Shown piece by piece: positions 17,703 to 19,403 of a stretch of DNA of 36,066 bases. Source of the stretch: Slackia isoflavoniconvertens (lineage in GTDB: Bacteria; Bacillota_I; Bacilli_A; RFN20; CAG-826); contig CAVEUG010000003.1 in the NCBI GenBank assembly GCA_963618895.1, positions 1-36,066 on the forward strand. Direction: 5' to 3'. Numbering within the stretch: position 1 is the first letter of the stretch; every line of letters starts with the position of its first letter. The position numbers and the translations under genes are program-made. The notes below the pieces were generated by a model. The model made no database searches. It saw only the letters and a list, made by a program, of their open reading frames with translations, and was not told the origin of the DNA.

Positions 17703-17783
17703 TATTTAAAAAAATGTTAATTTTCATCAATTTTTTTAAAAATTTTTTGAATTCCCCTATTAATAGTAGGAGGGTAAAGTTTT

Positions 17784-17870
17784 ATGATAAAAAATGTAAA
17801 AATATTTTTAATATTGATTTCAAATTACCATTTTGGTAATATGAAATTAGTTTTTGGTGCGTTATTATGA
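17784..17870 (+). CDS. Candidate 28-aa hydrophobic micro-ORF (MIKNVKIFLILISNYHFGNMKLVFGALL)
   Basis: AGGAGGG at 17769-17775, about 8 nt before the ATG at 17784. The TGA stop (17868-17870) overlaps the ATG (17867-17869) of the next gene as ATGA. It may instead be non-coding promoter/operator DNA. Confidence 0.35.
   Translation: MIKNVKIFLILISNYHFGNMKLVFGALL
17814..17842 (+). promoter_or_regulatory. Candidate promoter plus palindromic operator of the HigB-like/HigA-ImmA operon
   Basis: TTGATT (17814-17819), 17-nt spacer, TAATAT (17837-17842). A perfect inverted repeat ATTACCA-ttt-TGGTAAT (17824-17840) fills the spacer and overlaps the -10. Confidence 0.45.
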
Positions 17871-18229
17871 AATATGAATATAGTCCGCCAAGACTAAAAA
17901 AAGAATATGAAGATGAACGTAAAATGAAGAAAAAATATGGAATTGAAATTTCTCATGGGATGACATTATTTCTAGATGCAGTAAACGCCTCGTTAAATGC
18001 ATATGATTTAATATCTTATAGATTTTTCATGATCGAACACCTTAAAGGGAATTTAAAGAACTATTATTCTTTAACTTTAGATAAGAAAAAAAGTAAATGG
18101 AGAATTTTAATTCAAATGTTAGATGATGAAGGAAATGTCTTAATTCCTTCTGATGATGAGATAGAATTTTTAAAAAGTGTTAGAAGAATTAGAATAAGGG
18201 AGTTAAGTGAACATTATGTCGAATATTAA
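17867..18229 (+). CDS. HigB-like (RelE-superfamily, plasmid-killer type) toxin candidate
   Basis: EHLKGNLKNYYSLTL...KWRILI and a terminal ...ELSEHYVEY resemble the HigB/killer signature (LKG-x4-Y-x-S-I..., WRI, ...DYH). It lies upstream of and overlaps a HigA-type HTH gene, which is the toxin-first order typical of hig loci. Confidence 0.6.
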   Translation: MKYEYSPPRLKKEYEDERKMKKKYGIEISHGMTLFLDAVNASLNAYDLISYRFFMIEHLKGNLKNYYSLTLDKKKSKWRILIQMLDDEGNVLIPSDDEIEFLKSVRRIRIRELSEHYVEY

Positions 18230-19289
18230 AAGATTGCATCCTGGGGTTCATATTAAAGCAAATTTAGAAACTATGGAAATGACAGCGAAGGAATTTTCTG
18301 TTAGGACAGGGATATCTGAACGTGTTTTGTCGCCAATTATTAATTGTAAATCTAACATTACTTTTGAAATCGCTTTTGAATTAGCACAGTTTTTCGGAAG
18401 TTCGGTTGAATTTTGGATGAATTTACAAAATCAATATGACTTATATATGTATGAAATAAAAAGAGATGAAGAATTGAAAAAAGAATTATTATTAGCAAAT
18501 AAAGTAAAAAAATATCTTTTAAGTATTGATGCAATATCTAATAGAGATGCAAATACTGAAATTGTTTTTAAATGTAAAAAGTTGATAGGTGTTAATGACT
18601 TAACGTTGTTGGATAAGAAAGATCCTTTTGCTTGCCTTAAAGAACAGCATTCCAATAAAAGTGTTGATTATTTTATGCAAAACTTTTGGATTGCTTTAGC
18701 TTTAAATGAGGCAAGAAAGAAAAATGGAATTCCATACAACAGAAAATTATTGGTTGATTCCATAGATGAAATAAGAGCGATGACCACACAAGATTTAGAT
18801 GTTTTTCTTCCAAGATTAAAGCAAATTTTATCGGATTGTGGCATTTCTTTTGTTCTACTTCCATATTTGACAAAATCAAATATTTATGGGGTGACTAAAT
18901 GGTTTAGTAAGGATGATGTTATGCTTGCAATCTCAAACAGGGGAGGTAGAGCAGATTTGTTTTGGTTCACTTTGTTTCATGAAATTTCTCATGTATTAAT
19001 GGAGCATAGAAGAAAAGCACTGGTTAATTTAGAGGGTAAAGAAGATGAAGAAGCTGATAAAATGGCAGAAGATATGCTTATTCCTAAAAAAGAATGGGAT
19101 AAATTTATAAACGAAAATAAATTTGATAAAAAATCTATAATTAGTTTTGCAAACAAAATTAATATTCTTCCTTGTATTATTCTTGGAAGATTGCATAAAG
19201 AAAAAAGCAATATAGTTCCTTATGGAAAATTTGATAAATCATTCAATATCTTCTATAAAATTACAAATTATATCGATGTAAAGCAATAA
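18207..19289 (+). CDS. HigA-family XRE HTH antitoxin domain fused to an ImmA/IrrE (COG2856, M78-like) zinc metallopeptidase domain
   Basis: The N-terminus HPGVHIK..L...MTAKEFS..TGIS...LS.IIN.K..IT.E.A..L..FFG.S.EFWMNLQ..YDL is the HigA/VapI signature. HEISH (HExxH, nt 18978-18992) followed by EEADKMAEDMLIP is the ImmA/IrrE signature. The start is ambiguous: GTG 18207 or ATG 18216. Confidence 0.85.
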   Translation: MNIMSNIKRLHPGVHIKANLETMEMTAKEFSVRTGISERVLSPIINCKSNITFEIAFELAQFFGSSVEFWMNLQNQYDLYMYEIKRDEELKKELLLANKVKKYLLSIDAISNRDANTEIVFKCKKLIGVNDLTLLDKKDPFACLKEQHSNKSVDYFMQNFWIALALNEARKKNGIPYNRKLLVDSIDEIRAMTTQDLDVFLPRLKQILSDCGISFVLLPYLTKSNIYGVTKWFSKDDVMLAISNRGGRADLFWFTLFHEISHVLMEHRRKALVNLEGKEDEEADKMAEDMLIPKKEWDKFINENKFDKKSIISFANKINILPCIILGRLHKEKSNIVPYGKFDKSFNIFYKITNYIDVKQ

Positions 19290-19292
19290 AAA

Positions 19293-19315
19293 ACACCAAC
19301 ATTATATATTGGTGT
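19293..19315. terminator. Bidirectional terminator hairpin shared by the HigA-ImmA gene (+) and tRNA-Gly (-)
   Basis: ACACCAA (19293-19299) pairs with TTGGTGT (19309-19315) across a 9-nt loop. An A-run lies on the 5' side. The flanking tracts are weak. Confidence 0.5.
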
Positions 19316-19329
19316 CAAATTAACATATC

Positions 19330-19403
19330 TGGAGCAGGTGACGGGAATCGAACCCGCATGACCAGCTTGGAAGGCTGGAGTTCTACCACTGAACTACACC
19401 TGC
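19330..19403 (-). tRNA. tRNA-Gly (anticodon UCC), CCA encoded
   Basis: The reverse complement GCAGGTGTAGTTCAGTGGTAGAACTCCAGCCTTCCAAGCTGGTCATGCGGGTTCGATTCCCGTCACCTGCTCCA folds as a cloverleaf. Acceptor stem GCAGGTG/CACCTGC, D stem GTTC/GAAC, anticodon stem CCAGC/GCTGG with loop CTTCCAA, T loop TTCGATT, discriminator U. Confidence 0.93.

What the first reader, a model, noticed from the sequence alone, without database searches (positions are those of the whole stretch)
18207..19289. Domain architecture of the 360-aa fusion suggests an autoproteolytic or trans-cleaving antitoxin switch
The protein breaks into four parts. Residues ~1-80 are the HigA HTH. Residues ~80-250 form an unassigned helical region (KKELLLANKVKKYLL...FWIALALNEARKK...). 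Residues ~255-300 are the HExxH peptidase core. Residues ~300-360 form a C-terminal tail.

In two-gene ImmR/ImmA systems the protease cleaves the separate repressor. Fusion puts substrate and enzyme in one chain, so one signal could both derepress the operon and release the toxin. The start codon is ambiguous: GTG 18207 lies 4 nt after AAGGGAG, and ATG 18216 lies 13 nt after it. Either start overlaps the toxin 3' end.
Basis: partly seen in the sequence, partly recalled or inferred. Interest (0 to 1): 0.6.

Follow-up and report, generated by a model that had tools for sequence, protein, structure and literature searches.

The report
HigB toxin with HigA-peptidase fusion partner
This is a real, tightly coupled two-gene module: a HigB-type RNase and a HigA DNA-binding domain fused to an ImmA/IrrE-type zinc peptidase. 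The type is widespread, mobile and already described (E. coli anti-phage system PD-lambda-2), so this copy is ordinary, although nobody has yet shown how the type works.

Summary
The ORF (18207/18216-19289) is real. Its N-terminus is a HigA HTH, and HExxH sits at residues 255-259 (numbering from ATG 18216).

The four-part split is inaccurate. The peptidase domain spans about residues 150-330, taking in much of the "unassigned" region (a beta-sheet included) and most of the "tail".

The pair is a conserved unit. In about 150 of 152 related loci a homologous HigB-like gene lies directly upstream, and no third gene is conserved. The pair is patchy among relatives and common in prophages and plasmids.

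The fusion matches PADLOC PD-Lambda-2_B over its full length. The PD-Lambda-2_A model does not match gene A, and no C gene is present.

The "self- or trans-cleaving antitoxin switch" idea is already published (Makarova 2009; Ernits 2023) and is untested here. In PD-lambda-2 the fusion alone is toxic and the HigB-like protein rescues it.

Catalytic motifs are conserved in both proteins. A conserved (I/V)-A-(F/C/Y)-R motif lies in a flexible linker loop, and a palindrome sits upstream.

This scan has met the architecture before in at least 56 other genomes. Verdict: new member of a known kind; mechanism open.

The parts
17810..17854 (+). Imperfect 21-nt inverted repeat with core palindrome TTACCAtttTGGTAA (17825-17839), just upstream of gene A. 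It is a candidate operator for the HigA-type HTH.
   Evidence: repeat I1, 81% complementary. The 62%-identical relative L002 has TTACAAtttATGTAA at the same place, where one C-G pair is replaced by A-T on both arms. This is a single comparison in AT-rich DNA, so it is suggestive only.
17867..18229 (+). Gene A: a 120-aa HigB/RelE-fold protein. It has His57, Arg79 and a C-terminal E-H-Y where canonical HigB has D-Y-H, plus an insertion of about 20 aa at residues 86-106.
   Evidence: - Pfam HigB-like_toxin scores 23.7 bits, below the gathering score of 27.
- A family profile matches P. vulgaris HigB (4mct_B) at E=1e-9.
- The AF2 model has pLDDT 92.8, and its best folds are HigB 4px8, YoeB and YafQ.
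- A homologue lies directly upstream of the fusion in 146 of 152 loci by ORF calling, plus 4 more by six-frame search.
18196..18202 (+). Shine-Dalgarno-like AAGGGAG for gene B, embedded in the codons for the R-E of gene A.
   Evidence: A purine-rich motif sits at the same distance in L002, L245 and L081.
18216..19289 (+). Gene B: a 357-aa HigA-HTH::M78 (ImmA/IrrE/CapP-type) zinc-peptidase fusion. An alternative GTG start at 18207 would add 3 residues.
   Evidence: - PADLOC PD-Lambda-2_B at E=8.5e-28, covering residues 12-338.
- TIGR02607 HigA.
- AF2 model with pLDDT 90.7 and pTM 0.84.
- Fold matches to HigA for the N-terminus and to CapP 7t5t, PprI 8sln and IrrE 3dti for the C-terminus.
18228..18449 (+). 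HigA-type helix-turn-helix domain (residues 5-78, numbering from ATG 18216).
   Evidence: The family profile matches solved HigA structures at E=5e-20 to 1e-16.
18630..18641 (+). Linker-loop motif A139-C140-L141-K142. The family consensus is (I/V)-A-(F/C/Y)-R, with R in 96% of sequences. It is a candidate cleavage or pseudosubstrate site.
   Evidence: Column statistics on 125 non-identical family members. The loop at 131-150 has block pLDDT of 75 and 57, and DSSP marks a 2-residue bridge at 140-141. The function is inferred, not shown.
18663..19205 (+). M78-type metallopeptidase domain (about residues 150-330).
   Evidence: - Secondary structure.
- phrog_87 metallo-protease over residues 203-335.
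- Pfam Peptidase_M78 over 239-296 at 18.7 bits, below the gathering score of 22.
- CapP, PprI and IrrE fold alignments of 168-176 columns.
18978..18992 (+). HEISH: zinc-binding His255 and His259, with catalytic Glu256.
   Evidence: H255 and E256 are invariant and H259 is present in 99%. HExxH is present in 160 of 161 fusion ORFs. The retrieval pattern contained 'FHE', so only the second His is an unbiased count.
19044..19046 (+). Asp277, the predicted third zinc ligand, in the motif (E/D)-x-x-A-D-x-F/M-A-x-x-x-L-I-P.
   Evidence: This column is Glu in 98% of the family and Asp in the window's clade. A280 and L288 are invariant. The motif is the COG2856/M78 signature; that identification rests on my own knowledge of the family.
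19292..19316 (.). Hairpin between the gene B stop and the 3' end of tRNA-Gly (19330-19403, minus strand). It scores as a terminator on the minus strand only.

Best explanation
What it is (high confidence): a free-standing, mobile two-gene module of the HigB-like / HigA-HTH::M78-peptidase kind. This is the A/B pair of the E. coli anti-phage system PD-lambda-2, and the RelE + Xre-COG2856 'three-component' TA of Makarova 2009. This copy has no third gene.

How it most likely works (inferred, moderate confidence): mutual restraint with a protease-operated switch.
1. A and B are translated from one overlapping transcript.
2. They bind each other through the HigB:HigA interface.
3. The complex sits on the palindrome upstream of A and represses the operon. 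In this state the A RNase and the B peptidase are both silent.
4. A cue activates the zinc peptidase. By analogy with ImmA, IrrE and CapP the cue would be phage infection, DNA damage, ssDNA or zinc release.
5. The peptidase cuts B in its flexible linker, with the (I/V)-A-(F/C/Y)-R loop as the candidate site. The cut could be in cis or between protomers.
6. This separates the HTH from the rest of B, lifts repression and frees the HigB-like RNase. The RNase arrests translation, giving abortive infection or addiction.

Shown here: the genes, folds and motifs, their conservation, their linkage and their mobility. Inferred: the A-B contact, operator binding, the trigger, any cleavage, and which protein is the effector.
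For: Kind:
- B matches PADLOC PD-Lambda-2_B over its full length.
- B's N-terminus is a HigA and its C-terminus is CapP/PprI/IrrE-like.
- A is HigB-like by profile and by fold.
- RefSeq annotates the same pair on plasmids as a RelE/ParE toxin followed by a 'HigA family addiction module antitoxin' or 'ImmA/IrrE metallo-endopeptidase'.

Unit:
- A lies directly upstream in about 150 of 152 loci.
- A and B pairwise distances correlate at r about 0.9, most strongly for the HTH and linker.
- The genes overlap, and B's ATG lies inside A's His-Tyr codons.
- No third gene is conserved; downstream neighbours include portal, terminase, tail, MatE and methyltransferase genes.

Mobility:
- Any match to the fusion at E<=0.001, some weak or partial, in 5 of 24 same-genus species and in 17 of 399 genomes of the phylum.
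- 244 relatives in viral contigs.
- The genomic context differs in L002.

Both enzymes are under selection:
- HExxH is present in 160 of 161 fusions, and the third ligand is Glu in 98% (Asp in the window's clade).
- In A, His57 is present in at least 90% and Arg79 is invariant. The C-terminal motif is DYH in 84 and xHY in 53 of 151.

Switch:
- A conserved Arg motif sits in a low-pLDDT linker loop.
- A palindrome shows a compensatory change in a relative.
- ImmA-type domains act as antitoxins in RosmerTA (PMC10440598; bioRxiv 10.1101/2022.05.11.491447).
Against: - No cleavage, binding or toxicity was tested.
- In PD-lambda-2, B alone is toxic and A rescues it. The third gene C, absent here, is needed for defence (PMC9519451).
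- The PADLOC PD-Lambda-2_A model does not match gene A even at E<=1.
- A carries E-H-Y instead of the canonical D-Y-H, so its RNase activity is uncertain.
- B lacks the GAF-like sensor domain of IrrE and CapP, so the trigger is unknown.
- The operator evidence rests on a single comparison.
- The distance-correlation test is confounded by shared ancestry and by differences in evolutionary rate.
Confidence: 0.45

Rival explanations
1. Reversed roles, as reported for PD-lambda-2. The zinc peptidase B is the toxic effector and cleaves host or phage proteins. The HigB-like protein A is its inhibitor. A cue that removes or depletes A unleashes the protease.
For: - Vassallo 2022: B alone is toxic and is rescued by A.
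- B is the component that matches the PD-lambda-2 profile.
- The HExxH motif and third ligand are near-invariant.
- An HTH-less, HigB-less homologue of the linker plus peptidase exists in a same-genus genome (L248), so the peptidase can stand alone.
Against: - If A were only an inhibitor, there would be no reason for its HigB-type residues to be kept: His57 in at least 90%, Arg79 invariant, and DYH or xHY in 137 of 151.
- Gene A does not match the PD-Lambda-2_A model, so the E. coli result may not transfer.
- Toxicity of over-expressed B could be an artefact of an unrestrained protease or DNA binder.
Confidence: 0.25
2. The pair is a regulatory or sensor 'control pair', equivalent to a fused ImmR-ImmA or CapH-CapP. 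It switches other genes on after a cue and has no killing function of its own.
For: - M78 proteases such as ImmA, IrrE and CapP are all de-repressors of HTH repressors (PMC2701414; fold matches).
- Earlier notes from this scan describe related pairs that travel with varied cargo genes.
- Some plasmid copies are followed by overlapping Fic or HsdS genes.
Against: - In this window the flanks are housekeeping genes: ogt upstream and tRNA-Gly plus trxA downstream.
- No partner gene is conserved downstream in 141 loci.
- A keeps its toxin-type residues.
Confidence: 0.12
3. An ordinary HigBA addiction module. The peptidase domain is not a switch; it is catalytically idle scaffolding or merely tunes the stability of the antitoxin.
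For: - PGAP names many family members simply 'HigA family addiction module antitoxin'.
- The gene order and overlap are those of classical higBA.
- The module is found on plasmids.
Against: - The catalytic HExxH and the ligand motif are conserved across phyla down to 22-30% identity, which argues for an active enzyme.
- The uniform length of about 350 aa across 308 clusters shows that the whole fusion is kept.
Confidence: 0.1

Closest known systems
PD-lambda-2 anti-phage system of E. coli (Vassallo et al. 2022, PMC9519451; PADLOC PD-Lambda-2 A/B/C)
   Same: A HigB-like first gene is followed by a HigA-HTH fused to a C-terminal ImmA/IrrE-type peptidase. B matches the PD-Lambda-2_B profile over residues 12-338 (95.7 bits).
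   Different: No C gene (P4 beta-like, 374-position model) lies next to the pair or anywhere in the 75%-complete genome. The PD-Lambda-2_A model does not match gene A. In this subfamily the pair stands alone. A defence function has not been tested.
RelE/PIN + Xre-COG2856 fusion 'three-component TAS' predicted by Makarova, Wolf & Koonin 2009 (PMC2701414)
   Same: Exactly this association: a COG2856 Zn-protease fused to an Xre HTH, in an operon with a RelE-family toxin, on phages, prophages and plasmids. Microscilla pSD15, which the paper names, is hit H23 here. The paper proposes the same LexA-like protease/repressor idea.
   Different: That work is a prediction only. It gives no mechanism or experiment, so it neither confirms nor refutes the switch.
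RosmerTA (RmrT/RmrA; Millman 2022; Ernits 2023, PMC10440598)
   Same: The antitoxin carries an ImmA-type Zn-peptidase domain, often with an N-terminal HTH. The system is a phage-defence TA. The 'HTH cleavage' regulation is hypothesised there too.
   Different: Only the peptidase core matches RmrA (32 bits, residues 224-303). RmrT toxins are unrelated to HigB. The HTH here is specifically of the HigA type.
Proteus vulgaris HigB-HigA (PDB 4mct, 4px8)
   Same: The toxin-first gene order is shared. A is nearest to HigB by profile and by fold. B's N-terminus is 32% identical to HigA, with rmsd 0.7-0.8 A.
   Different: Classical HigA is about 100 aa with no peptidase. A has E-H-Y instead of D-Y-H, and it carries an insertion of about 20 aa.
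ImmR/ImmA (ICEBs1), DdrO/IrrE(PprI) and CapH/CapP repressor-protease pairs
   Same: An M78 zinc peptidase works on an Xre-type HTH repressor. Fold matches are to CapP 7t5t, PprI 8sln and IrrE 3dti.
   Different: In those systems the enzyme and its substrate are separate proteins. IrrE and CapP have an extra GAF-like sensor domain that is absent here. They switch on gene expression rather than release a toxin.

Membership tests
HigA antitoxin family (TIGR02607 / COG3093) | HigA-type Xre HTH domain scoring above the curated cutoff | tested here: met
   67.4 bits against a cutoff of 47.7. The family profile matches solved HigA structures at E=5e-20 to 1e-16. Fold rmsd is 0.7-0.8 A to P. vulgaris HigA.
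HigA antitoxin family (TIGR02607 / COG3093) | Encoded directly downstream of a HigB-type toxin gene | tested here: met
   Gene A (17867-18229) overlaps the start of B. The same arrangement holds in about 150 of 152 related loci.
HigA antitoxin family (TIGR02607 / COG3093) | Small single-domain protein (about 95-105 aa) that neutralises HigB by binding | tested here: not met
   B is 357 aa and carries a peptidase domain of about 180 aa. Neutralisation cannot be tested with these tools.
Peptidase M78 / ImmA-IrrE (PF06114, COG2856) | HExxH plus a downstream acidic ligand in the E-x-x-A-N/D-x-F-A...L-x-P motif | tested here: met
   H255, E256 and H259 are present. D277 sits where the family has Glu in 98%. 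A280 and L288 are invariant.
Peptidase M78 / ImmA-IrrE (PF06114, COG2856) | Pfam score at or above the gathering threshold | tested here: not met
   18.7 bits against 22 for the window protein. Many homologues do carry precomputed PF06114 hits.
Peptidase M78 / ImmA-IrrE (PF06114, COG2856) | Fold similar to solved family members | tested here: met
   CapP 7t5t, PprI 8sln and IrrE 3dti match at Foldseek probability 0.94-1.00 over 168-176 columns, but with low TM-scores (0.30-0.34 normalised to the target). The profile-to-CapP match is E=0.0045.
Peptidase M78 / ImmA-IrrE (PF06114, COG2856) | Site-specific cleavage of an Xre-type repressor | not testable with these tools
   This needs biochemistry. 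Only a candidate site (residues 139-142) can be named.
PD-lambda-2 defence system (PADLOC definition A+B+C) | B component | tested here: met
   PDLC03982 at E=8.5e-28 over residues 12-338. It is also the only match in the genome.
PD-lambda-2 defence system (PADLOC definition A+B+C) | A component matching PD-Lambda-2_A | tested here: not met
   There is no match at E<=1 in the genome. None of 49 A-family members matches at E<=0.01. Gene A is HigB-like by Pfam, profile and fold instead.
PD-lambda-2 defence system (PADLOC definition A+B+C) | C component (P4 beta-like) adjacent to the pair | tested here: not met
   tRNA-Gly follows gene B. PDLC03983 was not found in the 75%-complete genome. None of 10 sampled downstream proteins from related loci matches it.
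HigB / RelE-fold toxin (PF05015), for gene A | RelE/HigB fold and family signature | tested here: met
   The model has pLDDT 92.8, and its top folds are HigB 4px8 and 4mct_B, YoeB and YafQ. The family profile matches HigB at E=1e-9. Pfam gives 23.7 bits, below the gathering score of 27, for the window protein; 28 of 49 family members match at E<=0.01.
HigB / RelE-fold toxin (PF05015), for gene A | Catalytic residues equivalent to P. vulgaris HigB His54 and the C-terminal Asp90-Tyr91-His92 | tested here: inconclusive
   His57 and Arg79 are present and conserved. The C-terminus reads E-H-Y, not D-Y-H. Across the family DYH occurs in 84 and xHY in 53 of 151. The catalytic residue numbers are from my own knowledge of Schureck et al.

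The most novel reading that the evidence does not exclude
The conserved (I/V)-A-(F/C/Y)-R motif in the flexible linker of B is an intramolecular cleavage site or pseudosubstrate site. That would make B a LexA-like self-processing antitoxin/repressor. The bare two-gene pair would then be a complete sensor-switch-effector unit that needs no third gene, unlike PD-lambda-2.
Probability: 0.25. Interest if true: 0.6.

Novelty: new member of a known kind. Interest (0 to 1): 0.3.

Why it matters
HigB-like plus HigA::M78-peptidase pairs are very common on prophages, plasmids and chromosomes. Counts here: 308 clusters at 50% identity, 244 viral-contig relatives and about 4% of sampled genomes of this phylum.

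Their mechanism is still unknown, and the one experiment on the architecture (PD-lambda-2) gave a puzzling role reversal. This copy is a minimal version with no third gene, in a small-genome gut bacterium.

The family-wide features found here give concrete handles for deciding between 'self-cleaving antitoxin' and 'protease toxin'. They are two conserved catalytic centres, a conserved Arg motif in the flexible linker, and a palindromic site upstream. The locus itself adds no new kind of system.

Tried and rejected
- Island test. There are no flanking direct repeats and no GC anomaly around 17.7-19.3 kb. An empty-site comparison failed because same-genus genomes are too diverged: Ogt is only 40-42% identical and was found in 2 of 5 genomes. 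Mobility therefore rests on the patchy distribution and the different context in L002.
- Promoter scan. It found 8 sites against 11.1 expected, so no promoter is claimed.
- PDB search with the C-terminal half alone. It gave only chance hits to IdeS-type cysteine proteases. These were rejected in favour of the profile and fold matches.
- PDB entry 9vzy. This 393-aa HTH protein matched only weakly (E about 1) and could not be examined further.
- A versus B-segment distance correlations. They favour the HTH and linker, but shared ancestry and differing evolutionary rates confound the test, so it counts as weak support only.
- Conserved third gene. I looked for one same-strand within 200 nt downstream in 141 loci and found none.
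- RNA evidence.
- Structure. Model coordinates are not exposed, so the position of the linker loop relative to the active site could not be measured. No complex prediction was possible.
- Literature. I found no mechanistic study of HigB/HigA-M78 fusions beyond Vassallo 2022.
Full report
**1. The observation**

The + strand ORF from 18207 (GTG) or 18216 (ATG) to 19289 encodes 360 or 357 aa. AAGGGAG lies at 18196-18202, which is 4 nt before the GTG and 13 nt before the ATG. The upstream 120-aa ORF (17867-18229) ends inside it.

The ORF is a real gene. More than 200 homologues of very uniform length (345-370 aa) were found, with E-values down to 7.5e-228. In the library clustered at 50% identity, 308 clusters match at E<=1e-30. 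Close homologues and gene callers begin at the ATG.

In relatives with 51-62% identity (and in the near-identical strain copy) the GTG, the ATG and the purine-rich SD are all kept. They lie inside conserved codons of gene A (…E-L/I-S-E/D-H-Y…). B's ATG overlaps A's His-Tyr codons. Sequence alone therefore cannot decide between the two starts. I number residues from the ATG.

**2. Domain anatomy**

The N-terminus is a HigA-type HTH:
- TIGR02607 scores 67.4 bits against a cutoff of 47.7.
- A 65-sequence family profile matches solved HigA structures at E=5e-20 to 1e-16.
- The AlphaFold model (pLDDT 90.7, pTM 0.84) superposes on P. vulgaris HigA at 0.7-0.8 A with 32% identity.

The C-terminal part matches CapP (7t5t), PprI (8sln) and IrrE (3dti) by fold, and CapP by profile at E=0.0045. 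For the window protein, Pfam Peptidase_M78 scores just below its gathering score (18.7 against 22).

HEISH (H255, E256, H259; nt 18978-18992) is invariant or nearly so. The third ligand sits in the M78 signature (E/D)-x-x-A-D-x-F/M-A-x-x-x-L-I-P. It is Asp277 here and Glu in 98% of 125 non-identical family members.

- The model shows a long helix at 64-96 and short helices to 133.
- A low-confidence loop follows at 134-150.
- The peptidase domain proper then runs from about 150 to 330. It has helices 152-207, a three-stranded sheet at 210-240, the HExxH helix at 246-262, the ligand helix at 275-288, and three more helices to 329 that carry near-invariant G324, R325 and L326.

So much of the 'unassigned helical region' and most of the 'tail' belong to the peptidase domain. 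The PADLOC PD-Lambda-2_B profile covers residues 12-338 in one stretch (E=8.5e-28).

**3. The upstream gene**

Gene A scores below the Pfam HigB-like_toxin threshold (23.7 against 27). A profile built from 49 upstream proteins matches P. vulgaris HigB at E=1e-9. The model of A (pLDDT 92.8) is closest to HigB, YoeB and YafQ.

The family keeps the His that aligns with HigB His54 (His57 here, present in at least 90%). It also keeps an invariant Arg (Arg79) and a C-terminal His/Tyr motif. That motif is DYH in 84 and xHY in 53 of 151 sequences; the window has E-H-Y. The HigB catalytic residue numbers are from my own knowledge of the Schureck et al. studies.

**4. How often the two genes go together**

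I collected 163 related loci: 80 from metagenomes, 80 from viral contigs and 3 from genomes.
- Of the 152 loci with at least 400 nt upstream, 146 have a homologous 90-140-aa ORF directly upstream on the same strand.
- Four of the six exceptions have an uncalled or broken homologue.
- Pairwise distances of A and B correlate at r about 0.9. The correlation is strongest for the HTH and linker and weakest for the catalytic core. This is weak evidence, because shared ancestry confounds it.
- No third gene is conserved. The commonest downstream neighbours are phage portal and terminase genes. Others are tail proteins, a MatE transporter, a type III methyltransferase and a PD-(D/E)XK transposase-like gene.

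In GenBank and RefSeq records the pair is annotated as a RelE/ParE toxin followed by either 'HigA family addiction module antitoxin' or 'ImmA/IrrE family metallo-endopeptidase'. One example is Microscilla pSD15, a plasmid named by Makarova 2009. In a gut phage the pair lies between the large terminase and the portal gene.

**5. Distribution and context**

The window's genome is a 1.06-Mb assembly, 75% complete, of a low-GC gut bacterium. The closest named relative's record is an 'uncultured Mollicutes' MAG.

The fusion matches, in part only weakly or partially, 5 of 24 same-genus species and 17 of 399 genomes sampled from the phylum.

In the 62%-identical relative the pair sits between unrelated genes (an AraC-type gene and an HTH/GNAT pair). 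Here it sits between ogt and tRNA-Gly/trxA. No flanking repeats or compositional break mark an insertion.

**6. Regulatory features**

A 21-nt imperfect inverted repeat (17810-17854) has the core TTACCAtttTGGTAA and lies just upstream of A. The relative L002 has TTACAAtttATGTAA at the same position, where one C-G pair is changed to A-T on both arms. This suggests an operator, but it is a single comparison in AT-rich DNA. Promoter-like matches are not above chance.

**7. A lead on the switch**

The low-confidence loop at 131-150 has block pLDDT of 75 and 57. It contains the most conserved linker feature, (I/V)139-A140-(F/C/Y)141-R142. Arg is present in 96% and Lys in 3%; the window reads A-C-L-K. 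DSSP marks a two-residue bridge at 140-141 and another at 269-270. The second lies in the loop between the HExxH helix and the ligand helix.

A conserved linear motif in a flexible linker is what a cleavage site or pseudosubstrate would look like.

**8. Comparison with what is known**

The architecture is not new, and neither is the proposed mechanism:
- Makarova et al. 2009 described COG2856-Xre fusions in operons with RelE and PIN toxins on phages and plasmids. They drew the LexA analogy and predicted a three-component TA in which the protease cleaves the Xre repressor/antitoxin.
- Ernits et al. 2023 placed the ImmA domain as a hub antitoxin and suggested an 'HTH cleavage mechanism'.
- Millman et al. 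2022 showed RosmerTA, whose antitoxin has a Zn-peptidase domain, to be a defence system.
- Vassallo et al. 2022 isolated PD-lambda-2, which consists of a HigB-like A, a HigA::peptidase B and a P4-related C. They found that B alone is toxic, that A rescues it, and that C is required for defence.

Against the PADLOC definition of PD-lambda-2, this locus has B only. The A model does not match and C is absent.

I found no later mechanistic study. This scan has already noted the architecture in at least 56 other genomes, usually with a variable third gene.

**9. Mechanism**

Both catalytic centres are conserved across the family. The module therefore seems to need both an RNase-type protein and an active peptidase.
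- A pure 'B is the toxin, A is only an inhibitor' model does not explain why A's HigB residues are kept.
- A pure 'plain HigBA' model does not explain why HExxH is kept.

I therefore favour mutual restraint with a protease-operated switch (confidence about 0.45). In this model the A-B complex represses the operon and keeps both enzymes silent. A cue activates the peptidase, B is cut in its linker, and the RNase is freed.

The rivals are:
- the reversed PD-lambda-2-like model (0.25);
- a purely regulatory control pair (0.12);
- an ordinary addiction module with an idle peptidase domain (0.10).

None of these can be settled without experiments. The decisive ones are listed in the next-steps field.

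**10. Verdict**

The locus is a new member of a known kind. Interest is modest.

Noticed in passing
window 17784-17870: A 28-codon micro-ORF with a strong SD (AGGAGGG, 17768-17774) runs across the candidate operator and ends in ATGA on gene A's start codon. It is kept in the 98%-identical strain (L001). It is absent from the 62% relative L002, where gene A has its own AAGGAGG SD. It is probably not a conserved part of the module.
   Followed up: partly
window 18122-18184 (gene A residues about 86-106): Gene A carries an acidic insertion of about 20 aa with a short helix between its core strands. The insertion is shared by part of the xHY subclass (L082, L086, L090, L163) and is absent from the DYH subclass.
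   Followed up: partly
window 18212-18218: B's ATG start codon is built from the His-Tyr-Val codons (CAT TAT GTC) of gene A's C-terminal catalytic-type motif. The start of B and the key motif of A therefore constrain each other.
   Followed up: partly
L248 1498-2310 (G001, same genus): A 270-aa homologue consists of the linker plus peptidase part only. It has no HTH and no HigB-like neighbour, and it sits next to a lipoprotein-like gene. FHEISH is intact.
   Followed up: no
L001 (CAVFXI010000002.1): A contig labelled Gemmiger formicilis carries a 98%-identical copy of this locus, with the same ogt and trxA flanks, at 29% GC. It is probably a mis-binned contig from this organism's species.
   Followed up: no
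L252 (phage NatCom_34192) 2133-3523: In a human-gut phage the fusion gene lies between the large terminase and the portal gene. The upstream HigB-like region is annotated as two tiny hypothetical genes, so it is possibly split or mis-called.
   Followed up: no
L253 3062-4450; L254 3065-3748: On a Deinococcus radiophilus plasmid the pair is followed by an overlapping Fic-family gene. On Microscilla pSD15 it is followed by an overlapping HsdS-like gene. These may be variable third components.
   Followed up: no
window 19292-19316: A single hairpin sits between the gene B stop and the 3' end of tRNA-Gly(UCC). It scores as a terminator only for the tRNA strand.
   Followed up: no
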